A stretch of 64,000 nucleotides of DNA from Schmidtea polychroa (taxonomy: Eukaryota), in NCBI GenBank assembly GCA_044892525.1, contig CM097888.1, positions 81,840,001-81,904,000 of the forward strand, in the 5' to 3' direction. A program made the translations under genes and the position numbers. Shown in pieces: positions 18,101 to 45,100 of the stretch; position 1 is the stretch's first letter, and the number at the start of each line of letters is the position of its first letter. The notes beneath the pieces were generated by a model. It was not told the origin of the DNA and did no database searches. It saw nothing but the letters and a program-made list of their open reading frames with translations.

Positions 18101-21100
18101 ATGTCTTTTTCCGTAATAATTCGACCATCTGCCGTCCTGAAAACCACGGCGTCATCGGCCTTTTTTACTAATCTGCAAAAAAAATTATTAAATTTTTTCT
18201 TTTATTATAAACAAATTTAATATTTCAATATAGCCTGTCTATCAAAACATTATAAAACATTTTGTATTAGCTCTAAACAGTTCTCAAATAGAACTTTTCT
18301 GAATATTCTAAATATTATACATTTAAACCCTGTAACGACTGACAGGAGTGACAAGAGGGTCGACTGTACCCAATTATCCCTTTCCGAGGGGCGACAAATT
18401 TCTGTCGGACATTCGAGATATCAGAGTTTATTATCTGTAACCGCAGTTAGTGATGAGTGAAACTTACAGATGACAACATCCGTTTTATAAATGTAGTCAG
18501 TAAATTATTTCAAGAAATATTTTTAGATGGATCTTTAGAAAGACACAATTAAATCATTAAATCATGGTTTGAGGTCAAATAATTAACCCTTGTAAGTAGC
18601 TATGTTACAGATGTGATCCATCCATGGTGAAAAGCCTTAAAGGATTTTTGTTCACAAAACCATGGATATTAAATTAGATTAAAAGAAATCTCACAAGTAC
18701 GATTGGACATTTAGGAAGTTTTTGGTACAATAGTTGGTTTCTAGGAAGGTTTTAACTTTGAATTTGGCAATGAAAAGATGTAGAAAAGCTATATACATTG
18801 AAAAAGTCGAAAAAACTAAAAGTGCCAAATTTCAAGTCAAGCAGTAAATGTCTAGAAGTAAAGTATCCACAAGTCGATAATTTGAATTACCTTTTTTTAT
18901 AGATTTTCAGATTATTGATCAATATTTTTTTTCTTATTGAGCACAAAATTTTGGAACTATTTTTTCAAGTGTTTGTTCAATATATATTTTTTCAATATCT
19001 TGATTTGTACGAATATTTATTTGTTTATTTAATAATAATCAGCATTTATAATTATCGGTTTACGAACATAAGGAACTTTTGTTGATCAATTGCAACTATT
19101 ATTTTATATTTATTATCCATTTAATATTATAACAGAATATCGTGAAATATTGTTTCTATAAATATTTTAATAAATGTTATCTACATATATAATTACTGTT
19201 GTACGTAAGTCCCTTACGTCTAGGGCTTGCAATACCGGGATCCCGGTATTACCGACATTTTTAATACCGTTCAATACCGGTATTAATGACCACTTAATAC
19301 CGGTCCGGTATTAAATTTTTTTGCTGTAAGTTAACATTCATATCATTTTTATTTAACTATTTTATTTTTTATAAGTAATTAGCATATGTTTAGGTGTTGT
19401 CATGTTTAAAGATTAAATCTAATTTTGAAATTTACGTACAGGTGGCCCTACTGAAGTAATTTGTTTTTTTTTACATTAAGAAAGAGCCTTTTCGTACGTT
19501 AATTTTTCTAATACTAAAAAAATACTAAAAAAGACACAAATTCACATAGCAAGCCGTTTCTATGGGAAATTATTGTTTTCTATTTTTCCAAATTTTCAAT
19601 ATTGAAGCTATGTTTTTTTTTATAAAGAATAGTTAGTTAGTTCAGTTGTAAAGTTTTTGAAAATTTAGAGAATTGTGTTTGTGTATAATATAAAAGTTAA
19701 AAAATATTTAAAATCATAATTATAATTAATAATCATTAATTCAATTGATAAATAGCAGATAGGTAAAGGTAAGTTAAAAGTGTGAAAATTAATTATTGTA
19801 TAAGTAAAATTTTTATTTTCTATATATTTATATAGATAGCGGCGCTATCATAGCGCACTGCTGCGGGTTTTTTAAAAATTAAAATTAATAAATAATGTTG
19901 GGCTGAGTCGAAAATTTAATCGTTGAAAAATAAGAAAGTAGGGAAGTAGAACATTAAGAAAAATAATAATAAAATAAATAAAATCAGAAATAAAATAGAA
20001 TAAGATATAAGGAAAATAATAATTAAGACATAAGAATTAAAACAAAAAATAAAATTAAGAAAAGATTAAAATAGAACAAGTTGACAAATAAATAAAGAGG
20101 AATTCAAGAAATAAAAAGGAAATTAAGGAAATAAATAGAAAAACATATTAAAAATAAAGAAAATAAGGAAAAAACAACCTAAAAACAAGAAAATTATATT
20201 AAATTAATAGAAATAAGCGGTACTCAACTCTGATTGGTCCGCACAAATAAGAATTTGATATATATACAACTACCAAAAACATTAAATTTACTATTAACCC
20301 CGAGCATTTCATAGGTAAGAAAAATGTTTACTGGTTTTACTATTAACCCCGAGCATTTCATAGACATCTACAACTCACGGAGACTTAATTCAAGGATCAG
20401 CAATACTAGTAGAGCAACAGTTAATTCGGAAAACTTCACAGCAATTCGAAATCAGTCACAGCAATCGACATTCGACGAACCATCATCAGACTAATTTGGA
20501 ACGACTAACGTTAATTTTCCGATTCAGCCTAATTCCATAGTAAGGGATTTTTATTTATGATATTGTTTTTCGAAGTTAATAGTAAATATGTATATTTGAT
20601 GAGCAATTAAACTTTTAAATTTAAACAGACTCTCTTTTCATTTGATCCCGAATAACGATTTTGATAAAGTAAATAGTTTAAATGTTTAAAAGTATTTATT
20701 GGTAACAGGTGAACTCTTACATAATTTTTATGGATATTTATTTTGAAGTGATAGTTTTATGATTTCTAATATTAACGAGAAACGTGGCGTTGAGATACTC
20801 CATGTCATGGTGTGAGGTGCCTTCGGGAGCTCAGCCGGTGGACATGGAGTATTTCAATCACGCAGCTAGATTGGGCCGAAATGTGAAGGCTTCTTCACGG
20901 GTCCAATTGCTGAAGGACTTAAAATCTGTCAGAGTACCGAAATATAGACCGAAAGGAAACCTTCTGAAATTTTCGAAAATAGGATATGTGCTTCACAGCG
21001 ACTGAGGGAGTTCTCATATTAACTCTGTATTGTCCAGAGTCGTCTTACAAGACATTCATGCCACTTCTGTCTATAAACCCGAACTTACCATGTGGGGGAA

Positions 21101-24100
21101 AATACCATTAAACATCCATCGCTGGTCTTCTAACATATCGAGAAGTCGAAATTGCATTCGGTAGATTTTTGAAAAAGTAAATCTAATTTAGGTCATCTCT
21201 TTCAGATGCGACATCCAAATCTTAGCATATGATGAGGAATTTACAATAAAGGAAAAGTAAAACATAAAACCACAATAATACTGTATTCAATCACATATAT
21301 TAACAAAATCTGGTAATACCATTGAATAATTTTCATGCTGTTGCGTCGAAATATCCACTACTGAAATATGCTTCATAGAGTCTAGTTGGCTGGTTCGTAG
21401 AGATCTTCCATCGTTCAAAAACATCCAATATTGAGGAAATTACTAGTCGTAGTAAATAAATCCAACATCATAAGCTCAGATGGGAATCGACACGCGATGT
21501 AACATTTGTAGTTCGCTCAGTAAGGTTGATAGTTACAGATAAAATTTCCATCGAATAGGCACCCATACATACAGACATACTGCTAACATAACTATGAGTA
21601 GCGTCATCCGGTCAGAAATATGCATGAGAAACAGCAGAATCATTCCGAATGCCTCTCACCGCAGGGAATGCCGCCATGTGTCACCCTCTCTAGGATTCTT
21701 AGTGTGTGAGTAGTAATCAGTGGTCATATTAGATAATGCTGACATGAGATGTGACTTCCAGATGACTGACTCTTAAATTTCACTACTGATAAAGGTCATT
21801 CGTACCACTAAAAAGATAAGCCAAAATAACCAGTAACCGACTACTAGGATAAGAGACTCTCTAAAGTGCACTCATTAAAGATAATTTTGCTTAAATTAAA
21901 TATTCTAAATAAAAATCGAAATTGTTGAAGGGGTATTTTAATTAATAACCGAAAATTCAAACCAAACTTTATAACTCAACCATAGGAAGTTTTACCTAAG
22001 TGTTGTAGAGGTTTATCGTAATTCTAATTAGATGTTACAAATAATAGTAGTAGCCTTCGAGCCAAACTTAAATTAACTAAAGCATCTACAGGAATTTTTG
22101 GGTTATAAAATAGCTAGTAATATTGTATTTAAATTTCTCATATTCCATGTAGATTACGTATTGTAATAGAAAACTAAATCCGATAACAAATTATTATGTA
22201 ATTACAATATTTTTACGATGCTATATTTCTACGACGATATCACCGTATGGTATGGATAAGGGGTAATCATAAAATAGTGACGCATAGTTTATACGAAATT
22301 ACGAGTTGTTACTTATTCCGCTACTTGAGGTAAGGGTGCAAGTTTTTACTAGTTGCATTTGGTCCAAAAACCTTATTTTGCATTAGAATAACAACAAATA
22401 ATCAGCGAAATTTAAACGAAGTGTAGTATAGTGTATTTGCAATGAAATAGGTTTATTCACTCCGGCATGAACAAATCCGTAAATTGCCTTTATGTGCGAT
22501 AGATAGAAATCCAACTCGAACGCGATAGACGAAAATTTAAATTTTTACAAATAATTTGCATTCGTCAGGGAAGCAATCAGGGCGTTGAGGAATAATTTTG
22601 TAAAGGATACGTAAAATATTAGTAATCAAGGGTGAAGGGAGGGATCCTGTTTCATCGACTCGTCTTGTTTTCTTCCAGCACTAAGTATCCAATAGCGAAT
22701 AAACCGTATATCTGATCCGAAATTTTTAGATATAGTCATCATAGTTTTCTTCTTTAGCCATCCATTATGTTATCAAACAACAACTCAGCTCTACGTCCCT
22801 GCTTCTCCTGCTCAGATAAAAATGCAGTGATTAAAGATCTTCAAGCCCAGATCGGTCGATATAAACGACAAATCGACGAGCTGGAAGGGACATGGTTTAG
22901 TCCCGCTCGGATGAAGGAGATCCAAAAGAAGCTCGATCGTAGCGAGCATTGCCGGGACGCGCTAATATCTGAGAGCCGTGCCCAAAGAAGTCTAATCAGA
23001 GAACAATCCGAGGCACTGCATAAGGTTTACGTGCAGGCGGCTACAACCCGAAAAATTGTGCAGATTCCCATCCGAGAGGCCGATGACATCTTTCCGCCTC
23101 ATCACAACCTTTCCTCGAATCCATCTCCACCGTTCAAGAGACCGTGCCGAGACTGCGTCGAAACCGAATTGTCTCCCCAGCGACCAGATGTTGTCATCAC
23201 GGGTACCAGTAAGCCCCCCACTGCTAGTCCATCCGTATCAGTCACCCTTCCGCAAGTGGCATCTTCAAGCAAACCCAAGCGAAAACAACTTTCTCGTGCA
23301 GAGCGCAAGAAGAGACAGCGCGAGCGCGCTACTACAAAGCCAAACATCCCATCAATAGAGGACTCAACTAACGATGGCAACTCTCACGTGTCCCTCGACC
23401 TAACAACGGGACCCTCGGCACGAATCATATCAGCCGCTGGTGTAACGTGGGAAGAGAACGCTTCCGAGTTCTTTAACCTCGACGAATTATTCGCCGACGC
23501 TGAATGGGAGAAACAATAAAACCCCAGTGGCGGTCAGGATGAGGAACAAGGATCCGATCTATGTTGATTATGGTGTTTTCTCTTCTTTCGACAAACATTA
23601 GTAAAGTGTACAGTTGAATCCTTATGTTATAACGTTGAAATTAATAAATCTTGTTGTCTTACACGTTTTCGTTCATGAATAATTATACTTTAATTAAGTG
23701 GGTGGGGTAGAGAACCCGCAAGATCTAGTGAGAAATTCCCAATTTGCATTCAGCGAATCCCGATAAGCGGTTGTGTAAGGAAATGGACGTAAGCCCTTCT
23801 ATCGGCAGTCGTGAATGGGAAGTCGAGGCCTCAGCAAGGAGTAGTTTTAAGGCAGAAGCTCACCTGCTTGCTGGCGTCTCGCCTGCATAGTGCAGTACCA
23901 ACGTGAAGTGATTCACGGGCACTATGTTGGAAGAAAGTTATGTGGGGTTTCACTCCAGGTTGACAAATCGGTGGCACCTTTTATTCGAGATGGACAATCA
24001 ACCCTTAGACCCGTCAACATGGTAGAGTGGTCAGCCGAGGTGTAACCCCAACATGATTTTTGGGGGCTCAGCCGGGATACAGTCGATTGAATTTCTATTA

Positions 24101-27100
24101 ACGAATGCGAAATTCACCGGGATTTTCATACAAAATTAAAGGGATTTATCACATCGATTTTCTGTTTTCGACCGACCATTGCTTGACGAATGCAAATTGA
24201 CTATTGATTATTAAATTATATTAGGAACTAAGTAGAGAAAATCAAAATGTAGATAATAGAAAAATTAAGGATATATATAAATAAAGGAGATAAAGTAGTC
24301 AAATTAAATAATTAACAATGGTTAAAGAAACCAATTAACGAATTAACTATTAATTTACTACATATTATTAAAACATTACTTTTCCAACAGCTATGACAGA
24401 ATTCGCGAACCAAATGCAACAACTGCTCAAGTTTATCGATATAGAAAACGACTCCCTAACAACACTGACGCATAAAAGAGAAAAAATCAACGCGATATTA
24501 CTACAAGCAATCGGACAAACACCAGTCGTACCTAATCCTATGATATTAGCCACAGGCCTAAGTCGCCCAGATGGGAAAATAAACCCCGAAACCGTATATC
24601 AGTGGTATCAAGAGAGATTGAACCACCCAACATTAAATCTAGATTATCAGCGTCTAAAAGACTCACTAAATACAATACCAGATGCAATCGAACAAAAAAT
24701 ACAGGAAAAAGTTAACCAATTACGAACTTGTATAGCCTGCAAACTCCGTCCTATTCGCGTATTATTCTTGCCGTGTGGACACCTCAGTCACTGTGAAGAG
24801 TGTGTAAAAGACCTAAAAAGATGCACGATGTGCAAATATGAAATAAAAGAGACCCATATGGTCTATTATGGCGAATGAAACGGCCGGCGATGTAACAGCA
24901 AGTATACGATGTTTGAACAAGAATGCATGAAATTGTTGAAGTAACACGTACTGTTAATGATTCAATCTTTATGTTTATGATAAATAAATTCGTCTTTAAA
25001 AAGTTTTGATGATTAGGACTAATAAAATTTGCATGACGAATGAATATTTGCGTGTTTGTTTGGTTTTATTCTTTTTCTTCGGAATCAAATGAAGAGAGGG
25101 TTGAATAACGTGGAATTAGTCCCAATATAGACTGCAGGGGTACAAACCGAGCCACCTTCGGGCGGTACGTCTTATTGCAAGAACCCGTTGGGAGGGGATA
25201 ACTGATCAACCCAAGTAAGAAGCGTAGGGCGGGGTACCATCGCATATGATGAGAAGTTTTTGCGACATGACTGATCACCATGCCAATGTAGAAATGGATC
25301 ATCGCGATCGTCGTGCGTTTTGAGCAAGGGGGGAAAGGGGAAACACTCCCAAGCGGTAAAGATTAAGTCGACAAATTAAAAGTAGACAGAGAAAATGGTA
25401 AACTAGAGTAAAAGAAGAAAAGAGAAATAGAAGCATGCAGAGCGAGGAATATTGAAGCCGAGCTGTCGAATAATCCAGCCGGTCAAGGAGGAAGACTGAG
25501 CTGTTGAATAGTGCCAGCCAGTCGTAAGGTCGAGTTGTGAAAAGTCCAACCGATCAGGAAGGAGGAAGATTGAGCTGTTGAATAGTGCCAGCCAGTCGTA
25601 AGGTCGAGTTGTGAAAAGTCCAACCGATCAGGAAGGAGGAAGATTGAGCTGTTGAATAGTGCCAGCCAGTCGTAAAGGCCTAGAAAAGCGGGAGATAGCA
25701 GTTAAGCTACAATGAGATAATATTTAAATTACTAGTGATATGGAATATTAAAGCTAGCTAGAACAAACTGAATGTAATTTTGAAAATTAGAGTTTAGAGA
25801 GGAAATAAACGAGCTCGTGGAAAAGAAAATAAGATTATAAGGAAAAAGGAAAGGGAAGAAGGAAACGAATTAAAGAGATAATAGAAAATAAAGAATAGAT
25901 GAAATGATGATAATGAGTAAAGAGGAAAGTAACTAACTAATTAAAGGGATCCCAGTGAAGTAGAGAAACTCTACGGAATATTTTTTTTGGTTAAACCGGG
26001 AAAATGCATTTTATTGGTTCCAGAGTAGAACCGAGCGTAATAATAGTGAATATGAAAAGTAAAATAGCGACAACAGCGCAAAAGGATTAGGAAAATGAAA
26101 GGGGGGTAATAAGCAGAGACCGACAACGACCTATTTTTACTATAATTGATAACGAATAGATAATTATTACGACTTTATAGATAATTGTTACTACCCCATA
26201 TAGATAATTTAAAATCGACGGAAAATACGGGCTGATGGGATATTATAAACCGCAGAAAGGATTTCACAAAAGATAGGGGAAGCACAAACAGAAACCTAAA
26301 AGGCGTCTGTTTTTGAATGTTGTAGAAAGAATGATGAAGTCGTGTAAGCAAATGCAACACGAGATCATTTTTTCATTTTAGATATCAAGCCAATCCAGCC
26401 AACCAAGACAATCTAGAACCTGCACAAAAGGAATTCGAAGAAATCGACAATCAACCAAGGATAAATCCATTCAGAACCCGCACCGAGAGACACAGCAACC
26501 GGAAGACTCCAGAACGGAAGAAGTATCAGCAGCCATCTGCCAAGGATTAGTAAATCTCCTCAGGACCTCAGTAGCAGATTCATACAGAATATTTATCGAA
26601 GGAAACACAATCAGAACCGAACGCGTCCAATTCAATAGCCGCTAATTACCAAGAAGCGTAAGGAAGGAATCACGGATAAACCCAATCTTAGATCTTCTAG
26701 TAAGCCAGGAGACGTATTATTTTCAGGAGACGAATTACAACAACTCAAAAGAGGACGATCCATTAAACATCAAAGAGGAATATCACAAGGATCCAGAAGA
26801 ACCAATCAAGTACCCATATTTGACCAAGAAAATCTCGGATATACCCCTAGTCGATCTCGAAGTAGAGAAAGTCTGTCCGATATCACTAATAGTTTAGCAA
26901 CGTCAACCGAAGAATTATCAGCCCAAAGTTTAGTCACATCGTTAGACAATTTAAAAGAAACAGACGAACCTAGAACACCAATCATGACGAATGTCGTAAA
27001 AACCGACGAGTATAAAGAGAAGTTCAGAGGAGAACCGTTCAACGGAAATGCAAACAAGCTAGCAACGTTCATAACTAATTTTGAAGTTTATATCACTGTG

Positions 27101-30100
27101 TGTGGATGGACACCCGAAGCAATTAGTAAAAGGATGCCGTTGTTTTTGTGCGATAGTGCATTAGAGGTATATTTAGAAGCTAAAGAGAGAGACACGAAAT
27201 TAGAAAAGTGGGAAGATATTAAAACATTCCTGAAGAAAACCTTCGGAGCCAGTAAGCCAATCAACCAGGCGTTGGGCGAACTAGCAAATAGGAAACAAAG
27301 AGCAAACGAATCGATAACATTATATGCCAGTGAATTGCGGAGATTAGCGAAGAAAGCAATGAATGGAAAATTACCCGAAGAAAATCTGATCGGTTATTTC
27401 ATAGAGGGATTACGCCGAGAAGAAGTAAGAGCCTCAGTAGGTTGTCAAATGTGCAAAACATTAGAGGAAGCCATAGATTGGGCTACAAGATGCGAGCTCC
27501 ACCTTCCAGCTCAAATGAATATTATGCAAGAGGAGGGAAGGATAGCGACAGCAATAGCGAAAGCGGATAACGGAGATAACAACAATCAAGAACCGAAAAT
27601 GAATCAATTTATACCAGGAGCGCACCAAATTTTCAAACCACCACAAGGACGATCAAACGGGAATAATGGTAATCGTAACAACCCGAATAATGAGAACAAT
27701 TTCAATAATCGGCGAAATATGAACGATAACAAGCAGTGCCGAACATGCGGTAAACCAGGACACTGGGACAGAGATTGTTATAGAAATTCAACTTGTAATC
27801 GTTGCGGACGGCGTGGACATACCGAAAATGTATGCCAATTGCGAGGCTGTTTTAACTGTGGTCAGCCAGGTCACATCTCCAGAGATTGCCGAGAAAGGGG
27901 CCAACAACAACGACCACCACAGCGAAATAATAATTATATAGCGAATCCGCAACGACAAAGTAACCCTAACGAAGGAAAACAAATGAACGTTATGCAGGAA
28001 ATTTCGCAGATGAAACAGATGATGCAACAAATGATGAGACCAAGACAAGAATCAGCACCACAACAAACCCAGAATATACGTATGATGAGGAGTACCGAAA
28101 ATCTCAACAATTATGAAGTGCATCAACATGTACAAGAATGGCAAAGGTTACAGGCCGAGGAAGAGAGGATAAAACAAGAACGCAACCAACAACGACAAGA
28201 ACAACCATTGCGAATAAATATGATGAAGTTAGTAAAAGACATGAAGAGCCAGTATTGCTACAATTACGGGAAAAGCCCAAGGGTAGTACCCATGACTGAA
28301 CCAGAAAAGGTAAAAGAAATAACAACGGAAATGAAAACAGAGAATTCAACCACGATTTTAAAAGGAAACCAGAGAATTCAGAAAATATTCTGGAAAAAGA
28401 TGAAGGATAAAATCGAAAAAGAACATAATAAAGCGAAAACCGAGACAGAAGATGAAAATAACAAGAGCAAGGAACAAACCAGTCAACTAAACCACCAAAT
28501 GCTACAAGAATCAGAATCAGAAGAAACAACAATATTCGAAAGAAAGAAACTAAAGAGAGTACCAAGGATGAGAAACTTGCAAATCAATATGATGAAAAGG
28601 ACAAAAGATGTAGCATCGTCAGACGAAGAAGAAGATTATGTAAGTAGTTTGGGTGGAGAAATACTACAGCCGAATGAAATAAGCGAACCCCCAAAAGGGG
28701 AAATCAAAGAGGAAGAAAGCGGAAACGAGATAACCAGTGAAAGTGAAGACGAAGATATCGAAATAAAGTTGAGAAAAGCAAGGGAGGAAGCGATAAAACA
28801 GGTAGTCGAAATACTCCCAGTAGTAGTGAGGAACCAGGAGTTCATCGACGTAATACCATTCAGGCGATTCGTACAAAAAGTGATGAAATTGGAAAGAAAC
28901 GAGAAAGATCTAATACCAAACGAGGAAAAATCAATTATAAAAAATTATATGGAAAAAATGAAGCAGGCCGATACCACGCGGTATGTAATAAAAATTGGAA
29001 CGAGTAGAGGACTTGAAAGAATGTGGATAAAAAATACAGTCACCGACGAACTTTTCGATTGGATACGAGAACATTTGGGAAGTTCGAGAAAGAAAGAATA
29101 TCTGTATCAATACCAAGGAGAACAGATCAAACCAGATATGCACTTAGTAGATGCACTAATATGGCCAGGAGAAACGCAAATACTGAAGTTGCATAAAGAA
29201 AAACAACCAGCCAACCTTTACGATTGGGCTAAAGATGCCAAGGCAGAATATGATTTTAATATCAAATTGAAATTAGAACAAATAAAACAATGTACTCTGA
29301 GACGAAACCTGGATAAGCTGATCAAACAAATTCAAGAACAAGTAGAAGACAACTGGGATTTACTCATCACCAGACGAGCCCCAGCCATGTACGAACTAAT
29401 GAGCCGGTTGCGAGATACAGAAATGCTCCGAATGAGTGATTGGAGAACCATAAATTTGATCCACAAATATGGAAGGTTAAAAGAAACCCAGCCACAGAGG
29501 TTGGAAATAACCATATGGTTACCGAACGAAGAAAAACGACGAATAAAAATGAGCAATCAGAGTACAGTGGACGACTTGGTATCAAAAATAAACCAAGAGA
29601 TAACGGAAAAGGTACGTAGCGAAAGTAGTGATGGTATGGTGGATGATGTAGTCATGATGTACGATAAGATAATATTACGAGCGGAGGACGACACCTCGCT
29701 AAGCGAAATGGGTATGTGGGACAATCATCAGATAATCAGGATAGTACCAATGGATGAATTCCGAACAAGAGATGTAACATATCAAAAAGAAATACGAGAC
29801 CGGATGAAAACGTTATATCAAAAATCTACAGAAATAATTGAAATCCACCAACAATGGTTAAAAGAAAAAGAGCTACAAGGAAAAATCACGAAATTAAATA
29901 CCAGATCCTGCAGACGAACCCCATGGGAAAGAGTGTGGAATGCAGAAAGTAAGGAATGGGAAATCCGGAAAGGAATCTTCGTAGAAACAGACATCGGTGA
30001 GACAGAAAGTGAATCGGAGGAAGAAGAAGAGGAACCCCCAGAATATGAAGAGGAAGCAAGGGGACAGACATCAGATGACGAAAGCGAGACGGATGTCACA

Positions 30101-33100: not shown

Positions 33101-36100
33101 GTCACTAGAATTATGAATCCAGTGGGTTTCTACCCAAATCTCTTTAACTGTTCTAATGCATACGGACCTTTATATGAAAGGCCCGATGGGAAATGGATGA
33201 TGTTACCGGGAAAAACCATATCCGAGGAGCCCAAGAAATTTGGATTAATAGAACTCGCCACAGAGCTGGATTTCAAACCTATAGACGTGTCAAACGGTGG
33301 TATGTATTCCCCAGAAGATCTAGAAACAGCACGACTTAACGTACTCTTTCCAGCCAGACGAGAATCCATTTTGTCAAATATGGTTACAATAACGGGGGGA
33401 ACAAATTATCAATCAGGCCCGAATTACGAGCTGCTATTATCGCCAGACCATTTTCAACAGGCTACGTCAAACATGATGAAAGCAATGTGGGGAAGATTCT
33501 TAGTTTTTGGACAAATGATGGCCGGGATATTAGGGATCATACTCATAATTCAGATAGTCAGAGTAATACTAACACAAATGTTAGCTTGTTTTGATATATA
33601 CAAGCGAGAAAAGAAAGTAAATTGGAAAATGATAGTAGGCTTTTTACCATTTTTAGCTAAAACCATGGTATTACATGGTCACTCAAAAGACATTCATCGG
33701 ATAAAGCGATTGATTAAAATATTAACAAAGATTAAAGGAACCGACGAAGAAGTAGGCAGACGATTCCGGAAAGTAATGTACGATGAAGCAACAAGACGAC
33801 AATTGAAAAAGAATAAGCCAAAATTCTTGGACCGATTTAGAAGCCAATCATCTAACAGCGATAGTGACGACGATGATAACGGGAACGATAAATGTCTTTA
33901 TCCGAACAGAAACCCAAACGAAAAACCAATGGAAACGGCACCATATTGGGAAAAGGAAAAGACAAACACCTGGATCGCCAATGGAAGCTATATACCACCG
34001 GATATCGTGGGACCACAAGCAGCTTTGACCATGACACAAAATATGTATCCGCAATTACCGAGTCAACCCGGTATGCATTATATGCCAACACGACGTACCA
34101 AAAGTGTAGATCAAGCAGATGACGTAAGAACAATCGCAGCAATGAGTCTACCTGGAGGTCCAGCAGTGACAGTCATGATTCAAATCAATGGTAAAGAAAC
34201 CAATGCTATGATAGACACAGGAGCTAATGTATCAGCGATAGCGATTAATCAAATTCCCAGTAAACACTGGAAAGATATCGAATCAACAACAATTCACATC
34301 ATAGCATGTAGTAAAGAAACAGTGGACGTGGTCGGAAGATGGTGGACTACATTGAGATACCAGGACAACGAAATTGAAACGTATTTGGCAGTAATACCAG
34401 AACTTAGCGTACCATGCATAATCGGAACGGATTTGATGCCAGAATTGTTAAAAGAAGTCGTAATTGACTTAACAACCATGTGTTTAAAAGACAAAACCGG
34501 TAGAATATGCAAAATGAATGCAGTCATCAGATGTCCAGAAAAAATAATAGTACCAGCAAAATCGCAGATGATTTGTCAGATAAAAGTGGATACGGGTATG
34601 GAAGGAGAAGTTATCTTTGAACCAAGCAAGTCATTCGAAAAGCGACGAGAATTACCACTCGCAAGAGAAATAATCACAATAAACCAAGAAGGAGTGATAC
34701 CGCTCAACATCACGAATTTCGAAGAGGAAGACAAAATCATTTATGAGAACGAAAAATTGGGAAGATTGACCCCAATGATGGACATAGAATTACCGAAAGT
34801 GACCAACGAGATGATCAAAGATGATGAATTATGGACAATAGATAGTATGTTGTTGACGAATGATGAAAAGAAAAAATTACACCGATTGTTGGTAGAATAT
34901 AAAGATATATTCGCCATCTCAGACTTAGATTTGGGTACATGCGATGTTACCCTACATGCAATACCCCTCATAGATGAAATTCCAATTGCATTAAGACCAT
35001 ACAAGCTAGCAGAAATGCAAAAAGAAATAGCCGAAGCAGAAGTACAAAAGATGCTGGACGCAAAAGTAATCGAACCAAGTTGCTCACCTTGGCAATTCCC
35101 AGTGGTCATGGTGAAAAAGAAAGATGGCACCCAACGATTCTGTATCGATTATCGGAAGTTAAACGCAGTGACCAAGAGAGATACCTATCCATTGCCGGAC
35201 ATCAATGAGATGTTATTGATGTTGCAAGGGGCAGCATATTTTACTTCTTTAGATCTAAAAAGTGGATACTGGCAGATTAAAGTCAAAGATGAGGACAAAG
35301 AGAAAACAGCTTTCACGTTGGGACGAGATCTATATCAATTCAGGAAAATGCCATTTGGACTGACCAACGCACCAGCATCATTTCAACGGTGTATGAACTT
35401 TGTCACCCATGGAATCAAACAATGTATGGTATATATTGATGATTTACTAATCTATTCAGCGACATTTGAACAACATCTGGAAGATATCCGAAACGTATTT
35501 ATTAGATTAAGACAGTGGAAACTCAAACTCAAACCATCAAAATGCGATTGGGCAAAGGAAAAAGTCACGTTTTTAGGACACATAGTGTCAGCTAAAGGAA
35601 AGGAGCCAGATCCAAGAAACATTGAGAAAATAAAAACATGTCCAGCACCGAAAACTGTCACCCAAGTTCAGGAATTTCTAGGATTATGCGGATACTATCG
35701 CAAATTTATCAAAAATTATGCAGGAATTGCAAAACCAATCCAGGAATTAGTAAAGAAGGACATTTCGTTCATTTGGGGGAAGGAACAACAAGAGGCGTTC
35801 GAAACGCTGAGAGATAAACTAATCGAAGCACCTATCCTCGTACACCCAGATTTTAAGAAGCCATTTCTATTGGCAACGGATGCAAGCGGGTACGCGGCAG
35901 GCGCGATTCTGGGACAATTAGATGATGAAGGAAAAGAGAGAGTAATCGGGTATTACAGTCGAACATTCAAAAAGCACGAAAAGAACTATTCGGTAACAGA
36001 ACGAGAAGCATTGGCTATAATACAAGCTATCAAACACTTCCGATATTTACTATGGGGACATGAGATATGCATAACCACAGATCATCAACCATTAGTGTGG

Positions 36101-39100
36101 TTAGGGCAACATAAAGAAGCGTCCAGTAGACTGATGAGATGGGCCATGCAATTGCAAGAATACTCCCCATTTATAAAATTCAAAGCGGGAAGAGCAAATG
36201 CCAACGCCGATTGTATGTCAAGATTTATTTTCCCAGATTTGGTGGATTCAGAAATGCAACGCATATGCTTAATAGTAGCGGAAGATTTGGATTTCTGTCA
36301 ATTACGAAAGGACCAACAAGAGGACGCGGAATTAAAACAAATTATCGATTATGTAAAAACCGGAAAGACAGAGGTATATGCGAAAGACCAAAAATTAAAA
36401 GAACATATGGATAAACACCGACACCGATATATTATAGAGAAAGATTGGTTGCTGATAATGGATGGGGAAAAACGATTAATGTGTATACCGGGAAACCGAC
36501 GAAAAGAGTTACTAACGCAATATCACGACGGGAGATTGGGAGGACATATGTCATCGAAAAAGACGTTAGCAAGAATGAAACAGAAATATTTTTGGCCTAC
36601 GTTAACTGAAGATGTAACCGAATGGGTAAAAAAATTGTCTAACTTGTGCAACCAGGAAGAATACTGGATCGAAATGGAAAGCACCTTTAACACCAATGCC
36701 AGTACCAATAGAACCAATGACGATGATATCCATGGACGTAGTTGGTCCACTACCAGAGTCAGATAAAGGAAACGTTTACATTCTAGTGATCACAGACTTT
36801 CTTACGAAATTCCCAGAAGCATTCGCGATGCCAGACCAAAAAGCTAAAACAATCGCAAAAATTTTGGTAGAAGAGATATGTTGCCGATATGGAACACCAA
36901 AACAAATCTTAACCGATCAGGGAACTAATTTTATGAGTGAGATAATGAGCGAAGTAACAAATTACTTCAAAATAGCAAAACTAAGAACCTCTCCATACCA
37001 CCCTCAAACCAATGGGATGACGGAAAGATTTAATGGAACACTTATACAAATGTTATCAAACTACGTTGACCGTCACCAACGAGATTGGGACGAATATATA
37101 AACCTATGCCTTATGGCATACAGAATGTCGATTCACGCATCAACGAAAATGAGCCCATTCAAATTAATGTACGGAAGAGAATGTAATATGCCAATGGACC
37201 TAGAATACCAACCACCGATATCACAGTATATGGAGATCGATGATTATGTTACGAAATTCAAGGAAAGAATGCAAGAAATTTGGGAAACTGCGGGATTAAA
37301 TATCAAGTTCTACCAGGAAAGTTATAAAGATTTACACGATCGAAAGAAAAACGTGAAGCAACATACGTTCCAAACAGGTGATTGGGTAATGATAGAAACC
37401 CCGGAATTAATTCCAGGAACCACAAAAAAGTTACAACGCAACGGAAAAGGACCATATGAGATCTTATTCGTAGGCGAAACTAATGTAAGAGTGAAATTGG
37501 TAAATAACCCCTTTACCAGACCAATATACGTAAACGTGGCACGATGCAAATCAATTCCAAAAACAGCCACCAGTCAACCAGAAGGCCGTACATTAACCAC
37601 ACGTTCGCAAACCTACCGAATGAACATGATGCAACAACTCGCAGAACCGATCACCGGACGATTGGGTATCCAACCATCAGAAGCGGAAAAAATTGTAAAA
37701 GAGGTAAAAATTAAAATACCTGGATGGGCAGAAGATCGATTAGATTTCGAAATATTAGGAGGATTATTGACGATGATCGAGAACTATGCAAATAGAGAAA
37801 GGACACACCCATTATTGCGAGTAGTCCAAAGCCAATGGCCAATATTATTTACAATAACAGATCATTACGGAGACACACCATTACACAAACTCATGAAAGT
37901 AGGTAACAACGAGCAAATACTAGAAACAATAGAAGCATTTCACGACTGCAAGCGATCAACAGAACAAACAAACAACCAAGGTTACACACCATTAATGATA
38001 GCCGCAAACAGAGGTAAAACAAAGGACATTATAACCGCATTACTCGATACCGGATCGAAAATAACTACACAAGACCACGAGCGGAAAAACGCTCTACATC
38101 ATGCTATCGAAGGGAGAAGTACCGAGGCGTTCACGTCATTGATGGAACTACTATCATATGAGGACAATCGGGAAGTCGGAAACATGTATGATGGATTGTT
38201 AACAGCGATCAAAGAAAAACTGACGACAATTACCGGAATATTAATTACATGGAGAAATCCAATTCGAAACGATTATATGATCAACGTAAACGAAGCGTTC
38301 ACGAGAGGAGAGAACACGCTGATGAGAGAAGCTATGAAAGGACATCATTTATTCGAAATCCCGAATCAATTACTAGAACGAGGGATAAAATTCACAAATC
38401 ATAAAGACGAACAGTTAGCAAAAAAGCGAATCGACACATTCGAAAAATCCCTATTCCAATTTACTAACCAAGTACGAAATAAATATTGGGAAACGGTAAG
38501 TGTGTTATATATGATGGACACGATGAATAACATCCGCGAGAATTACCTGGATATTATCCAAATACTTACAGCAGAGGAACGAATCAATAATCCAAACGGA
38601 AAGAAAACGAAAATAAGGTATGAGAAATCCAGGGAATCAAAGTCAACAACGAACCAAACGGTCACAAACAACGTCATCAAAACCAAATCAATGAGTACAG
38701 ATCAAGAGGCAATAATACGCAAAGCAAAAGAAGTGTTCTTTGAGGAAATGCTAGAGCTGCCAGACGAAATAATATTATCCAAAATCATAAAAGCCGTACA
38801 CACATACGCAAGAGATCAAACCACGGGTTTAGATATCGGGAAAATCAAAACCTTCTTGCCTCGAGCATTTACGATGGTAACGAAGGATTCCAGAACACCC
38901 CTACAACAAGCAATACTAGCAGCGAAAGAAAATAGAGCAATAACGATCGTGAGAATCCTTGGAGAGATGGGCGAGGAAACCAACACGAAAAATGAACAAG
39001 GTGAAACCGCCATGATGTATGCAGCTATAACGAAAATACACCCAAAAACACTCCACATCCTACATCAATCAGGATCGAAACTAGACGAAAAGTCCAATGA

Positions 39101-42100
39101 AGGAAATTCCACCTTGGACTGGGCAACCATACAGCCAAACTTAGAAATGATCAGATTTATTTGCAAAAATGCGACAAAAGAAGAAGTTGAAAATATGTGC
39201 AAAAACACATCTCAGTTTCAATGGAATACGGTACGGAAAAATCTAGAAGCAATGAAATTATTATTAACCTGGAGAGTACCACAAAATAATAAATATGCGA
39301 TAAACGTAAACGAATTCTACGAAAACGGAGAAAATGCGATGGTAAAGGATACCCTAACTAAGGGGGGGACGCCTAAAATTATTTTAATAGTATTAAATAG
39401 AGAAGACCTAAAATTCACGCAAAATCAGAACGAGCAACAACGAATTGGGAAACATCGTCGTATGCAATTGAGAGAGTTAGTTAAAGAATGGAATAGAAAG
39501 AGACATGCTGCAACGGGTAGAAAAGAGTTTGAATTCGAAGCAAAATTAGCAAGAAACAGAGTGCTAACAGCATATCGCAGATTATTGAACGATATAAATG
39601 TCGAGGACGACATTTTAAATGACAGCGGGGGAGATAAATACGATGACAATGATGGAAAAGGCCGGAAAGAGGATAAAGGGAAAAGAGAACCGGAAGAGGA
39701 TAAACCGGAAAACAAGGATTTGGATACGAAAAGAGAGGGAAACAGGCCGGGAACCAAGACCAAAGAGGAGGAAAAATCGAATAATGGAAAACAGAGGGTA
39801 TGCCTACCTTTCACTAACAAAGAAATAGAGACAAATATGATATTAATGATAATTATGCTTACCATGATAGAGTTAGTAACAGCTCAGGGAGGGACGAGAA
39901 CGATAAAAGAAACCAAAGAAGCGGAGAATCAAGATAGCAAAGAGGATGAACTAAAGCAAGAAAAGAAAAAGCAAACACAAGAGCAGCAGTGGGATTTAAA
40001 GGAAGAATGGGACTTAAAGGAAAGGTGCATACTAGGAAGATGCATGTCTAGAGCGTATCAGAAACTAGTACTGATAAATGAGGACACAGAACCAATAACA
40101 GAAGTAAGAATACAAGAAGCATACCGAAATCGAGACGGGAAGAGAATAACGAACGTCAAAGGAAAAGAGGTACACCTAGGAAAAGGTGGTGAAGTAGTAA
40201 TAACGCAGCTCCAACCAAGAAAAGAGCACAAAGTCTGTATTTCAAGATTAGGACCGGGTGAGAGATGCCATCAATATGTGACGCAGCAGCAGCCCCCGAA
40301 GGAATATACGGTTTGTATCTGGAGGAACGAATCAAAAAGAGAATGCCGACGATACCCGGGGAAAAGAGGAAAGAAAAGGAAAAACCACGACGAAAAGGAC
40401 GAAGGAGGAAAGCACAAGAAAACCGGCGAGGAAGCTCAGGACAACTATGTTTCGGAGGAAGAGATGGAAAAAATACAAAAGATGGCAAAGGAGGGTATGA
40501 ACGAGGAAATAGCAAGAATACGGGAAATGATGAAAGGAAATGGCAAAAGAGGAAACGAGAAAGGTACAGGAGCAATATCAACATTAACAAACAAGGAAAA
40601 ACCAGAGAGTATAAGCGTGAAGCAGATGATGTGGATCAGTGGGATAATAATAACAGGGGCATTCCTAATCATAACGGGGGGAACAATAAAAATAATTAAG
40701 GATAAACGACATCGCGGAGAACTAGAAATGACTCGAATCAGAAATTTCCAACATCGAGTGAAACGACCAAGTGATATCAAACAAGAACAGTGGGTGGAGG
40801 CCTGGAACGCTCAGCGCCCCCCAAACTCACGTATATAGAAAGGAATATGACTGTATATAATTGTAAAAAGTAAGTATATCTTATGTATATAACAGTACTA
40901 TATCTTTATATAAGCGCGGTATCAATATTATACAATAACGGGAATCATAAAATAAAATTAAATTTACATAAGAGTTGAAAAGTGTATATAAATTAGGAAT
41001 GGATCAAGGAAATAACGAAATGAACCACAATACCGTAACTGAAGAATTATGGAAGCAACAATGTGCCGTATTAGCACAATTAGTGTCCAATTTGCAAGAA
41101 CAAGGACTAACGATGCACAGAAACCTGATCGAGAGTATGAACAGAGGATTTAGTTATTTGAAGATAATTGAAGACCAGAGGTTAAAAATCGAACAAATGC
41201 AAAGAGAGATAGAGAGGATAACCCAATATAGCCGTCGACAGGAAATTGAAATAGACAGAATGATGGAGGAAGCAGAACAGACAGAAATAGAAGACTGGTC
41301 GGAATGGCTAATGAATAGAGAGGAGAGCGGACACGAAGCCGACTCTTCCGAACCCTAAACTAAACCTAGCTTAAAATGTAAACAATTGTAAATAAAATAT
41401 CGAACCTGTATCGATAAGAACTATTTGTACATATAATTATAGAATGGATAAACGACAAAGAGAAGAGTTCAGAGAGATTGTCGAGCAAGTCCGAAAATCT
41501 ACAACGATCAGAATACACAAACATGTTATGTGCGGAATATGTGAAAAGTTGTTAAAGGAACCTCACCAAACGCAATGTGGATGCAGAGTATGTAAAGAAT
41601 GTATCAGTGAAGCAATAAAAAATAGACCACAGAGGTGCCCGGTGTGTAAAGAGACACTAATATCGAGTTTAGAAGACACTAACGAGGATAAAGCCGCAGT
41701 GAAAGACATGTTAAACACCAACCTGGGATGCAAAAATGCCCCATGCGAATGGAAAGGAGTAATATGGAAGGTAGTACAACATATGGGAGAATGTATGTAC
41801 AGAATTGGCCAGTGTGAAAGGTGCCATAAAACCATTCGAGCAAGCGAAGAAAAAGAGCATCAAAGGCAGTGTGAAGAGAGATTGGAAAGATGTGAACACT
41901 GTGGAGAAATAGATACGTGGAAAAATCTCACCCTCAAACATCACAATGTCCAAGAGGAGAGAGTATGTGCAGAGTTCAGTGGGGAATGCCCAAACGGATG
42001 TAACCAAGGGGAAATAATGAAGGTGGCACAGCATCTAAGGGAATGCGAAAAGAAAAGAATGACATGTGTACTAGGTAGATGGGGTTGTCAGAAACTACTA

Positions 42101-45100
42101 CACCGAGGTGAGTTACCACATCATTTAGTAGGAAATGCTTCAACTCACGCAGAAATGTGGTCGACTGCGTTACAAGAAAGCGAAGAGAAAGTAAAACAAA
42201 TGGAGATAGAGATAACATCGTTGAAAGTGTTAGTCAAAGAACTACTAGAAGAAAGGAAAGCGTTCGAGGAAGCCCGAGCAAACATAAAGATGCAAATAAA
42301 CCGAACAGAAATCAGTAATAATCAGGCCAAGGAGCTACATCAGAAAATACGAGAAATAAATCTAAATGAGATAACCCCAACAGCACCCTACATATGGAAA
42401 ATAACGGGAGTAAAAGAAAGAATACGAAAAGCAAAAACCGGAGAAGAGACAAGAATAACAAGTCCTACATTCCATTCTTGGAAAAATGGGTACAAAATGA
42501 AAATGAAGATATATCCCAACGGGGACGGAACCGGATTAGATACGCACTTTTCGATTTTCTTTCTGTTATGTAAAGGAGAATACGACGAAATATTAGAATG
42601 GCCGTTCCAGGCAAAAATCGATATTACGCTGATGAACAACCGAAGTATACATGAGCAAAGCTTCAAAACAACGGGGAATCAAATAGCTTACCAGAGGCCC
42701 CTCAACGAAGAAGGATCAGCAACAGGAGCACCTACGTTCATCTCACAACAAAGAGTAGAAGATATGGCGAGAAATGATACCATATATATCAAGATGACCG
42801 TGAGGAAAGAGGAGAAGGGTAGAACGGAGTAACCAATCGAATAATGTTGTATATAATAATCTGTATATATCGGTGTATATAACCAATAAAATATTATATA
42901 ATAATAGTATGAAAACCCTAAATACGAAAACCCAAAAATGATGCGAAAATTTCCCAAGAAACAGTAAATAATGAATAAATTCCTTTTTCATAATAAAAAG
43001 ATTAATCGATGTCTATGATTTAGAGATGACACAAGAGAAAATAACCGAAATTGCGATAGACCCAACCAATGTCAACAAGACACAAATTCCCCGAGAACAT
43101 AACAAAAAATGGAACAAAGTAATGTTCCAACTAACTAATCTCACCCGAAATCACATCGAAGAAACTAGAGAAGATGAGAATAGTCAATACCAATGGTTAA
43201 TACACAACTTAAGAGCGGAAGCAGAAGCATGCAAAAGAGCATCAAAATGGGCGTCACTAGAAAATACCCGCCAAGAAGCACACAGCCACTACTTAAAGCA
43301 GCTAGTGCAGGAAGCGAGAAAGAGACTTACCGATGAGAACACCAAGCGCGAAGCGGAAAAACGAATAGAAGACAGGAAAATGATGCACTTAGTGGCAGAA
43401 GCGAGAAAATGGAAAAGACAAAACAGAGAAATGAAAAAAGAGATGAAAGAATTGCCCATGAGACTCGGATATGAAAGCGAACAAGGTAAATGGGAAGAGA
43501 ATTTAATAATAAAGGAAGAATTGAAAAGGTTGAGAAAGGTCGCCGCCCGAAGCCAAACCTGGCAAACAAAGGCTATGGAATTTGAGCGACATTTGGCATT
43601 AAAATGCGACATAAGAGAGCACGAGAATGCCGCAATGGAAGAAATGATAACCCAACAAGCAGGACGGATTGTGGAATTGGTAAATCAGGTCGGAGAGATG
43701 AAAAGAGACCTTAATGGATTACAAGGATCGTTAGAACAAAGAAACATGGTCCTAGCGGGAAAAAACAGAAAATTAGAAAACGAGAGGAAAATGTATACCG
43801 AAAATATCAAAAACTTGGAAATAGAAATTGAAAAATGGAAGGGCGACGAGAAAATCAAGGCCCTAGACAAACAGATAGAGGCGAAAGATGAAGAGACAAG
43901 GTATCTCACCTATCTGCTCGACGAGGAATTGAATATCACTCGAGCTCTAAGAGACGAAGTTAGTGAATTGAGAGCTCAAATTCCCCAATATTACCTACCA
44001 TACGACCCTATTGCGATACAGTTACATTCCGCGGTCGATAGTGATGAAGGTTATGTAGGCCAGGAGGAAACCTTCGTATGAGGGTGGATGAAAAGATGAA
44101 AAACTAAAAACCGGGACGTATATCCCAAACAAAAAAAAAAAAAATTTAAAGTATTGTAAAAGTATTCAAGGGACTGTAACCCAAACTATTAAATTTTATA
44201 TCAATGTATACGTATAAGTCGCACTATAGCGCACCATTAACTGTACATATTATAGATATGAAAATCGAGGAAATGATAGAAATTATGAGCGACATAGAAG
44301 AGGGAGAGATTGAGGCAGAAACAACAGAAACACAAACGCTAAAGGCCGAGTTACGGGAAGAGAAATACGAAAACGGGAGATTAATAAACAAATACCTGGA
44401 GGACCGGAAAATGATAAAGGTGTTAAAGAAAGAGTGCGAAGCGTTGGGGGAAATAAAAAGAGAAACGGAAGAGGAAAATGAATGGCTACACGAACAAAGG
44501 AAGCGAGGGAAAAACTGGGAAAAGATAGCGGAAGAACTATGGAAAGAGAGGGCAAGCTTCAAAGCAAAGGAGGTAATCCAAGACTACTGGAAAACTGAGG
44601 CGAAGGAGCGCCAAACAGCTATAAATAAATTAAAACGACAACTAGAAGAAAACCAACGGGAAAGTAAAGAAATGAGGAAGTGGGTCCGCAAATATAGAGA
44701 AATAGAAAGAAAACATCAACAACAAAATTACCTGCAAGAAAACGAACAAGATCTCCTACAAATCGAGCTAAAAAGAAACCTTGAAAAGAAAAGGGAAGAA
44801 ATTAGACGCTTGGAAAAGGAAATTAGACATCTAAAGAGAGAAGCCCGTGAAAAAGACCGACAATTGGAAATGCTGCCCGAGTTAAGACACAGGGTAATTA
44901 ACGCAGAGTCCACCTTGATGAGAATCGGCGAAAATAATCCAAATCAGAACCATTAAATTAAGGGTCATTAAAACCAATTGTAAATAAACATAATGAATGT
45001 ATAATAGTATCATGCGAGGCGAGATGATGATAACAATGATGGTATTGATGATTCTGATGGAGAGCAAACAGATAGACGCCCAACCGAAAATCGTACGAGA

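What the first reader, a model, noticed from the sequence alone, without database searches (positions are those of the whole stretch)
20290..45012. Every ORF has its own splice acceptor: one LTR leader spliced to eight alternative acceptors (adenovirus major-late-like program)
Seen: AG acceptors end at 22757 (9 nt before ATG), 24390 (2 nt), 40996 (2 nt), 41442 (1 nt), 43023 (2 nt), 44255 (2 nt) and 45007 (4 nt). For gag, TTTTTCATTTTAG at 26381 is followed by 602 nt with no ATG until the gag start. Most ORFs are followed by AATAAA, often as TGTAAATAAA. The LTR offers an AUG-free exon (20364-20539) ending in a GTAAGG donor at 20540. Inference: monocistronic mRNAs made by alternative splicing and polyadenylation, or by spliced-leader trans-splicing. 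The flatworm SL ends in AUG, which would be out of frame at most of these sites, favouring cis-splicing.
Basis: partly seen in the sequence, partly recalled or inferred. Interest (0 to 1): 0.85.

Follow-up and report, generated by a model that had tools for sequence, protein, structure and literature searches.

The report
Leader splicing in giant planarian retroelement
A giant retrovirus-like jumping gene of a kind known from planarians keeps a splice-acceptor signal in front of each of eight genes and likely makes their messages by splicing one short leader from its own end repeat onto each, though its last five genes sit in a differently built cluster that may instead use the host's spliced-leader system.

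Summary
The stretch is a 30.2-kb Burro-like gypsy element (19896-50048; identical 4158-bp LTRs). Acceptors persist in sister lineages down to about 30% protein identity. Gag follows a T-rich TAG and 503-666 ATG-free bases in 7 of 7 elements. A 49-nt LTR intron shows DNA signs of having been spliced.

The sites form two classes. The three 5' acceptors are T-rich, and LTR-leader cis-splicing is likely (about 0.85). The five 3' acceptors lack T tracts and lie in 55-193-nt spacers. These spacers hold all 10 sense TGTAHATA (Pumilio-type) motifs of the element, while their AATAAA count is at chance. So 'own poly(A) per gene, adenovirus-like' is unsupported, and a nested retrovirus-like set fits better.

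No spliced junction was seen. For the 3' five: cis about 0.5, SL operon about 0.28. This scan noted the same acceptor pattern before on other copies in this genome.

The parts
19896..24053 (+). 5' LTR, 4158 bp, TGTTGGG...CCCCAACA; identical to the 3' LTR; AATAA target-site duplication at 19891-19895 and 50049-50053
20233..20266 (+). Promoter-like pair: reverse CCAAT (ATTGG, 20233) and TATA-like box (20259-20266), kept in 7 LTR types
20287..20314 (+). Leader exon 1 (about 28 nt; inferred start of transcription); its sequence is repeated at the 3' end of intron 1
20315..20363 (+). Intron 1, 49 nt, AG|GTAAG...TTCATAG; holds the only ATG of 20290-20539 (20324); absent exactly in 4 of 10 sibling elements
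20364..20539 (+). Leader exon 2, AUG-free
20540..20545 (+). Donor 2 (GTAAGG), kept in a sister LTR whose surrounding exon is about 46% alike; 65 of 65 exact leader ends in the genome are followed by G
22744..22757 (+). Class I acceptor (T-rich TAG) for the LTR ORF; TAG to CAG with the same 9-nt spacing in a sister LTR
22767..23519 (+). LTR-internal ORF, 250 aa, no Pfam family; Cys-rich N-terminus, basic stretch, acidic tail; AATAAA at 23643 with U-rich downstream sequence
24061..24077 (+). Primer-binding-site-like motif 7 nt after the LTR (tRNA-Pro type is recalled, not tested); 1077 exact matches in the genome
24377..24390 (+). Class I acceptor (CAG) for the RING ORF; AG 0-2 nt before ATG in lineages A, A2, B and C
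24393..24878 (+). RING (C3HC4) ORF, 161 aa; AATAAA at 24983 and 25021, the latter with U-rich downstream sequence
26368..26381 (+). Class I acceptor (TTTTTTCATTTTAG) for gag, followed by 602 ATG-free bases
26984..36766 (+). Polyprotein part 1, 3260 aa: Gag, CCHC knuckles, mononegavirus-type fusion glycoprotein, protease, RT, RNase H, integrase zinc domain
36696..40838 (+). Polyprotein part 2, 1380 aa: integrase core and ankyrin repeats, after a frame break in this copy; no acceptor of its own was looked for, as it is read as the continuation of part 1
40839..40998 (+). Spacer 1: 3 TGTAHATA, donor-like GTAAGT at 40870, class II acceptor TAG at 40996 (AAG in lineages A2 and B, TAG in C)
40999..41358 (+). 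ORF 119 aa, no Pfam family
41359..41443 (+). Spacer 2: 2 TGTAHATA, TGTAAATAAA, class II acceptor at 41442
41444..42832 (+). TRAF-like ORF, 462 aa (RING, MATH)
42833..43025 (+). Spacer 3: 3 TGTAHATA, 7 ATGs above the class II acceptor at 43023; AG in 72 of 73 copies with this exon start
43026..44081 (+). ORF 351 aa, no Pfam family over its cut-off
44082..44257 (+). Spacer 4: 1 TGTAHATA, no AATAAA, class II acceptor at 44255 (TAG to CAG in a sister copy)
44258..44956 (+). ORF 232 aa from 44258 (250 aa from 44204; that upstream ATG is not kept in two B copies)
44957..45011 (+). Spacer 5: TGTAAATAAA, class II acceptor at 45007 only 19 nt after AATAAA (TAG or CAG in sisters)
45012..45665 (+). ORF 217 aa with hydrophobic N-terminus and one membrane-span-like stretch (read by eye); AATAAA at 45772 with U-rich downstream sequence
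45891..50048 (+). 3' LTR, identical copy, with second copies of leader, donors and LTR ORF (48762-49514)

Best explanation
This Burro-like element keeps an acceptor AG before each of eight genes and likely expresses them as a complex retrovirus does, by cis-splicing one AUG-free LTR leader (donor 20540) to one acceptor per RNA. Transcription would start near 20287 and intron 1 would be removed. Three strong T-rich acceptors would then give the LTR-ORF, RING and Gag-Env-Pol messages. Five weaker AT-rich acceptors 20-24 kb downstream would give a nested set of accessory messages, probably sharing the strong poly(A) signal at 45772 or in the 3' LTR rather than one each. RNA that keeps the intron from 20540 would be the packaged genome. 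Shown: the sites, their conservation, the two classes, and the concerted exon 1 duplicate. Inferred: every splice event, the start site and the poly(A) sites. Confidence is about 0.85 for the three 5' acceptors and about 0.5 for the full eight.
For: (1) CCAAT, TATA, donor 1, donor 2 and the 22757 acceptor are kept in a sister LTR whose middle is only 27-50% alike. The same leader layout is seen in 7 LTR types of lineages A and B, and TATA plus one donor in 3 lineage C LTRs. (2) Gag follows a T-rich TAG and 503-666 ATG-free bases in 7 of 7 elements with a gag start in view; the nearest upstream ATG lies 27-51 nt above the AG. (3) Exon 1 equals the intron 1 tail in 7 LTR types with different letters (exact in 6, one base of indel in 1). 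The window differs from all 20 sibling LTRs by the same base in both repeat copies, as expected if a spliced 5' end is copied into the tail during strand transfer. (4) A YAG lies 0-10 nt before the ATG in 7 of 7 ORFs (A), 4 of 5 (A2), 6 of 7 and 6 of 7 (B), and 5 of 7 (C), with TAG/CAG exchanges and varying distance. (5) Spacer 3 has 7 ATGs above its AG, which argues against an unspliced 5' UTR. (6) Two host enolase introns also end in AT-rich acceptors with weak pyrimidine tracts, so class II sites are usable in cis (two examples only). (7) 0 of 65 leader ends are joined to anything but the intron, which fits packaging of RNA that keeps this intron.
Against: No junction was observed in DNA. 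No processed copy turned up for the leader end or for 4 of the 8 exon starts searched, and two internally deleted siblings break at non-splice places. The five 3' acceptors must win against three stronger upstream acceptors and two strong poly(A) signals over 20-24 kb. They carry their own signature (all 10 sense TGTAHATA of the 26-kb unit; none after the LTR ORF, RING or last ORF) and spacing like flatworm operons. Spacer 1 has AAG in A2 and B. One lineage C ORF has no AG within 10 nt, and another has AAG. Lineage C leaders carry an ATG. Exact loss of intron 1 in 4 of 10 siblings could also arise by slippage between the two repeats.
Confidence: 0.5

Rival explanations
1. Hybrid: cis-splicing of the LTR leader for the three 5' genes, while the five 3' genes form an operon-like cassette. 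The read-through RNA would be cut in each spacer and the host spliced leader added at the AG a few tens of bases further on.
For: Spacers of 55-193 nt meet the 300-bp criterion for flatworm operon candidates (PMC12582326, passages) and match the 100-bp mode in M. lignano (PMC8629364, section 4). The AG lies 19-62 nt after the last AATAAA/ATTAAA in all five. TGTAHATA occurs before each 3' ORF but not after the last one (lineages A, B, C), so it tracks the junctions. SL trans-splicing is described in S. mediterranea (PMC12582326, section 4). In S. mansoni, outron acceptors are less conserved and long introns favour trans-splicing (PMC5832876, passages).
Against: The spacer AATAAAs are at chance level and lack a U-rich downstream element (T fraction 0.18-0.32 against 0.42-0.56 at 23643, 25021 and 45772), so cleavage in each spacer is not evident. 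The SL AUG would be out of frame at all five window sites, and planarian ribosomes start at the first AUG in a reporter test (PMC9606109, passage). No ORF relies on an SL AUG as its only start. No precedent turned up in one paper search.
Confidence: 0.28
2. Foamy-virus-like: an internal promoter near the end of pol, or one per spacer, drives the 3' genes, possibly through the donor-like GTAAGT at 40870 spliced to the five acceptors.
For: GTAAGTA at 40870 is kept in A, A2 and B. Six of the ten motifs read TGTATATA, which is TATA-like. Foamy viruses use an internal promoter for accessory genes (PMC3185757, passages).
Against: The donor is absent from the lineage C spacer and lies in a block that is conserved throughout. 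The motif also takes TGTAAATA and TGTACATA forms, which fit a PUF element and not a TATA box. Spacer 3 has 7 upstream ATGs. No CCAAT/TATA pair like the LTR's was sought or seen upstream of 40870.
Confidence: 0.12
3. The 3' AGs are not processing sites. The cassette is translated from longer RNAs by re-initiation or leaky scanning, or is rarely expressed, and the AGs survive as part of a conserved start context.
For: The chance of a YAG near an ATG is 0.13-0.39 per site. The 3' spacers are 97-100% alike in the nearest sister, so close copies add little. No junction was seen.
Against: An AG is kept at varying distance in lineage C, whose proteins are about 30% identical, with TAG/CAG exchanges. 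The ORFs are long and separated by many ATGs.
Confidence: 0.08

Closest known systems
Burro / GYPSM1 giant gypsy-like LTR retrotransposons of planarians (PMC6431247, section 7 read whole)
   Same: Over 30 kb with LTRs; Gag, CCHC, mononegavirus-type env in frame before PR-RT-RH-IN; ankyrin, MATH/TRAF and RING cargo; accessory ORFs; very many copies.
   Different: MATH/TRAF lies here in a separate ORF 3' of pol (inside the polyprotein in Burro1, upstream in the D. tigrina element). A BIR domain was found only in lineage C. The section read says nothing on how accessory ORFs are expressed.
Complex retroviruses (HIV-type major donor to many weak acceptors, recalled; foamy viruses, PMC3185757, passages)
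   Same: Donor in the R region ahead of the primer site, many acceptors, accessory genes at the 3' end, and RNA that keeps the major intron serving as genome.
   Different: Here Gag itself needs a spliced message because two ORFs lie ahead of it, one ORF lies inside the LTR downstream of the start, the span is 24 kb, and the RT is of gypsy type.
Adenovirus major late unit (recalled, no paper read)
   Same: One short multi-exon leader for many acceptors over about 25 kb.
   Different: Adenovirus uses a poly(A) site per gene family. Here strong poly(A) signals are seen only after the LTR ORF, the RING ORF and the last ORF.
Flatworm SL-resolved operons (PMC12582326, PMC8629364, PMC5832876; passages and named sections)
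   Same: Same-strand genes with spacers under 300 nt and an acceptor shortly before each start.
   Different: Known cases are host genes. SL addition here is untested, and an upstream cis donor exists.

Membership tests
Burro giant gypsy elements | Over 30 kb with long LTRs, many copies | tested here: met
   30,153 bp, LTRs 4158 bp; 40 scored of 366 candidates at 99%
Burro giant gypsy elements | Gypsy order PR-RT-RH-IN | tested here: met
Burro giant gypsy elements | Env-like fusion protein in frame between Gag and protease | tested here: met
   PF24664 at residues 1868-2207, E 3e-67, before RVP at 2397
Burro giant gypsy elements | Ankyrin, MATH/TRAF and RING cargo | tested here: met
   MATH lies in a separate 3' ORF
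Burro giant gypsy elements | BIR, BCL2-like, SUMO-like and dUTPase-like motifs | tested here: inconclusive
   None in the window by Pfam at E 0.01; BIR in a lineage C accessory ORF; the paper used HHpred, which was not run
Burro giant gypsy elements | One polyprotein of about 4900-5100 aa | tested here: inconclusive
   3260 + 1380 aa with a frame break inside integrase in this copy
Burro giant gypsy elements | Sequence identity to Burro-1 to -4 | not testable with these tools
   No named Burro sequence was available; the source paper is not held
Complex-retrovirus splicing program | Major donor in R upstream of the primer site | tested here: met
   Donor 20540 after TATA and before the PBS at 24061, conserved; use inferred
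Complex-retrovirus splicing program | Integrated copies keep the major intron | tested here: met
   65 leader ends followed by G, 0 by another base
Complex-retrovirus splicing program | Leader-to-acceptor junctions in RNA | not testable with these tools
   No run on record as RNA held the stretch (see Tried and rejected)
Adenovirus major-late-type unit | Separate poly(A) site per gene or family | tested here: inconclusive
   AATAAA 6 against 5.6 expected in the five spacers, none in spacer 4, no U-rich downstream element; planarians use many variant signals (PMC5068929)
Flatworm SL operon | Same-strand genes at most 300 bp apart | tested here: met
   55-193 nt for the five 3' spacers
Flatworm SL operon | SL joined at the downstream acceptors | not testable with these tools
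   No SL-bearing reads available; no processed DNA copy for the two 3' exons with hits examined or the one without hits
Flatworm SL operon | Cleavage and polyadenylation in each spacer | tested here: inconclusive
Foamy-virus internal promoter | Second promoter upstream of the accessory genes | not tested
   Only a donor-like site at 40870 was noted (kept in A and B, not in C)

The most novel reading that the evidence does not exclude
A retrovirus-like element that carries a eukaryotic operon: Gag-Env-Pol and two 5' genes are made by cis-splicing from its LTR, while five accessory genes are cut out of the read-through RNA and capped by the host's spliced leader at junctions marked by clustered Pumilio-type sites, which would tie their expression to stem-cell RNA machinery.
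Probability: 0.28. Interest if true: 0.82.

Novelty: new variant of a known kind. Interest (0 to 1): 0.5.

Why it matters
Burro elements are abundant in planarian genomes and carry ubiquitin- and apoptosis-related cargo, but the papers read do not say how a 26-kb unit with eight starts is expressed. A common-leader program would show that a gypsy-type element reached the expression complexity of complex retroviruses on its own. The SL alternative would be an element using host trans-splicing as an operon. The eight predicted junctions and two leader types give a cheap, decisive test on RNA from animals in which Burro is de-repressed (BURRO1 rises after smedwi-2 RNAi; PMC8532177, passages).

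Tried and rejected
RNA evidence: no RNA holder listed. Four contig-only runs (two guessed RNA, two of unknown kind) were laid on 36000-45900 only. None of the 15 joints shown (5 not shown) is GT..AG or lands on a claimed acceptor, and none of the 24 loose ends shown (371 not shown) lies at one. The leader and the three 5' acceptors were never laid. This says nothing for or against splicing.

Processed DNA copies: leader end plus non-G gave 0 hits. TRAF exon start gave 2 hits, both ordinary lineage-B-type acceptors. The 43024 exon start gave 1 hit, a chance match. The 44256 and 26382 exon starts gave 0. The other four exon starts were not searched, and these patterns cannot see joins from donor 1. 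A search for the intron-1-less LTR gave 0 because the pattern held the window's private base; one search found such LTRs directly.

Two internally deleted siblings break at non-splice places. A protein search for N-termini that an SL AUG would extend found no homolog. Host enolase showed no close upstream gene within 1.5 kb, so it gave no host operon spacer to compare. TGTA as a CFIm poly(A) element was rejected, because planarian poly(A) sites lack upstream UGUA (PMC5068929, passages). The SL-frame argument was rejected as non-discriminating. Of ten sister elements fetched, the 3' pieces of five (L054, L056, L060, L062, L064) held no accessory cassette and were left out of the spacer counts. 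Lineage D (L061-L064) shares the primer site but not the layout. Grohme 2018 and Rossi 2014 could not be read; their text or supplements may describe Burro transcripts or SL targets.
Full report
What it is. The finding lies in one LTR element at 19896-50048 (30,153 bp). Its two 4158-bp LTRs are identical and it has an AATAA target-site duplication. It encodes Gag, CCHC knuckles, a mononegavirus-type fusion glycoprotein, protease, RT, RNase H and integrase, then ankyrin repeats after a frame break in this copy. Accessory ORFs include a RING protein and a TRAF-like protein. This matches the Burro/GYPSM1 elements of planarians (PMC6431247, section 7 read whole). The host is therefore probably a planarian (inference). 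The family is young and large: 40 scored of 366 candidates are 99% identical, and the primer-site motif occurs 1077 times. The first ORF (22767) lies inside the LTR.

Checking the observation. All eight AGs, the AUG-free exon 20364-20539 and the donor at 20540 are exactly as described. A YAG lies 0-10 nt before the ATG in 7 of 7 short ORFs. The joint chance is 2e-5, or about 4e-4 for the five ORFs where the ATG was not chosen after the fact. The poly(A) claim is weaker: the five 3' spacers hold 6 AATAAA against 5.6 expected. What is enriched is TGTAHATA, 10 against 0.56, with 0 in 4143 nt of the five ORFs.

Sister lineages. Thirty of the 1077 primer-site matches were sampled and ten were fetched as separate 10-kb pieces. 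They gave lineages A2 (proteins 81-97% identical to the window's outside the LTR ORF), B (mostly 35-80% for accessory proteins) and C (about 30%). A fourth group, D, lacks this layout. A YAG lies 0-10 nt before the homologous ATG in 4 of 5 (A2), 6 of 7 and 6 of 7 (two B copies) and 5 of 7 (one C copy). The misses are AAG at spacer 1 in A2 and B, AAG before the last C ORF, and one C ORF with no AG. For three B ORFs the ATG aligned to the window's was used rather than the first. TAG/CAG exchanges occur at 22757, 44255 and 45007, and distances vary from 0 to 9 nt. For gag, all 7 elements with a gag start in view have a T-rich TAG followed by 503-666 ATG-free bases, and the nearest upstream ATG lies 27-51 nt above the AG. 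This is the strongest sign that an mRNA is joined at that AG to an AUG-free leader.

The leader. A sister copy beside the window has an LTR whose middle is only 27-50% alike, yet it keeps the CCAAT box, TATA box, both donors and the 22757 acceptor with the same 9-nt spacing. Seven LTR types share the order CCAAT, TATA, exon 1 of 24-30 nt, GT, an intron of 44-51 nt ending in a copy of exon 1, exon 2, and a donor (second donors in three B types read by eye). Three C LTRs have TATA and one donor, with an ATG in the leader. In 10 sibling elements (20 LTRs), 4 lack intron 1 exactly in both LTRs. The window differs from all 20 by the same base in both repeat copies. I had noted the concerted duplicate (note). 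The mechanism, in which a spliced 5' end overwrites the intron tail at strand transfer, came from earlier finding e1-8146218, and fits it. Exact loss alone could be slippage, but the shared private change needs a copying route. This points to a start near 20287, to cis-splicing in the LTR, and to a packaged RNA that begins with the element's own exon rather than a host SL (all inferred). None of 65 leader ends is followed by anything but the G of donor 2, so the packaged RNA appears to keep the large intron.

Two classes of acceptor. Class I (22757, 24390, 26381) has 10-12 pyrimidines in 14 nt. The strong poly(A) signals, with U-rich downstream sequence, are at 23643, 25021 and 45772 (T fraction 0.42-0.56). 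Class II (40996, 41442, 43023, 44255, 45007) has 5-8 pyrimidines in 14 nt and lies in spacers of 55-193 nt, 19-62 nt after the last AATAAA/ATTAAA. The AATAAAs there have A-rich downstream sequence (T 0.18-0.32). All 10 sense TGTAHATA of the 26-kb unit lie in these five spacers; B copies have 8 of 8 in theirs, and C has 5 in its first five spacers. The motif is absent after the last ORF in A, two B copies and C. It matches the PUF core UGUANAUA, and a planarian Pumilio is expressed in stem cells (PMC5855632, passages). It is unlikely to be a CFIm element, since planarian poly(A) sites lack upstream UGUA (PMC5068929, passages). What binds it is untested.

Mechanism. The best reading is one LTR leader spliced in cis to one acceptor per RNA, as in complex retroviruses. 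Class I gives the LTR-ORF, RING and Gag-Env-Pol messages. Class II are weak distal acceptors giving nested accessory messages that probably end at 45772 or in the LTR. I put class I at about 0.85 and all eight at about 0.5. The main rival for class II is SL trans-splicing of an operon-like cassette (0.28). The spacers meet the flatworm operon criterion (PMC12582326, passages; PMC8629364, section 4), S. mediterranea has SL trans-splicing, and long introns favour it in S. mansoni (PMC5832876, passages). Against it, cleavage signals in the spacers are not evident, and an upstream AUG blocked a downstream ORF in a planarian reporter (PMC9606109, passage). An internal promoter as in foamy viruses (PMC3185757, passages) gets 0.12; a donor-like GTAAGT at 40870 is kept in A and B but not in C. 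No processing at the 3' AGs gets 0.08.

What was not shown. No junction was seen in DNA: searches for processed copies found none, and at 43023 72 of 73 copies keep AG. The RNA attempt was uninformative (see Tried and rejected).

Novelty. The element type is known. Four searches and the Burro passages of PMC6431247, PMC8532177 (0 occurrences of 'splic') and PMC11410931 gave no account of how Burro accessory genes are expressed. Grohme 2018 and Rossi 2014 were not held, and their text or supplements may bear on this. The adenovirus and HIV comparisons and the tRNA-Pro label are recalled. This scan reached the common-leader reading before on other copies (e1-8578977, e1-8575156); those are not independent evidence. 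Verdict: a real and conserved feature, a new variant of a known kind, interest 0.5.

Noticed in passing
window 26672 (312 nt before gag ATG); L047, L049, L051: An in-frame ACG with A at -3 and G at +4 opens about 104 stop-free codons before Gag in 4 of 5 A/B copies (out of frame by one base in L045): a possible non-AUG start for an N-terminally longer Gag.
   Followed up: partly
window 45850-45890; L048, L052, L070: No purine-rich tract before the 3' LTR; instead a block with an inverted repeat (AATTGCGGG.CGCAATT) and GG.CCCC.GAGTG is kept in lineages A, B and C. The plus-strand primer is unexplained.
   Followed up: no
Not tested.
   Followed up: no
L011 vs window 45891-50048; L045: LTR middles diverge far faster than the internal region (27-50% against 92-96%); at least three LTR types go with nearly the same internal sequence.
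   Followed up: partly
window 25485-25706; L066, L067: A 74-nt tandem repeat between RING and the gag acceptor has 3 copies here and many more in a sibling.
   Followed up: no
window 50477-52147: The element sits beside hAT-type transposase remains (DUF659, hAT dimerisation) and may have inserted into a DNA transposon.
   Followed up: no
G000:C4:81903790-81915925 (L011, L012; begins at window about 63790): A minus-strand sister copy holds the 3' cassette and LTR and is cut off by another gypsy-type element.
   Followed up: partly
G000:C1:39424153-39471575 (L068, L069): Four primer-site matches 15.8 kb apart: a tandem array of a lineage C unit with LTR ORF and RING but no other ORF of 90 aa or more that matches the window's proteins in the pieces fetched.
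   Followed up: partly
L058:6003-7178: Lineage C carries a BIR plus RING (IAP-like) accessory gene with TAG directly before its ATG; the window has no BIR gene.
   Followed up: partly
P0001, P0002: Two unnamed 4029- and 4057-aa polyproteins in public assemblies have the same Gag-env-protease-RT-integrase order (39-43% identity over the part searched).
   Followed up: no
window 36600-36770: The polyprotein frame is broken inside the integrase region in this copy although its LTRs are identical.
   Followed up: no
window 44221-44233: A short inverted-repeat block (CGCACTRTAGCGC) upstream of the 44255 acceptor is kept in lineages A, A2 and B.
   Followed up: no
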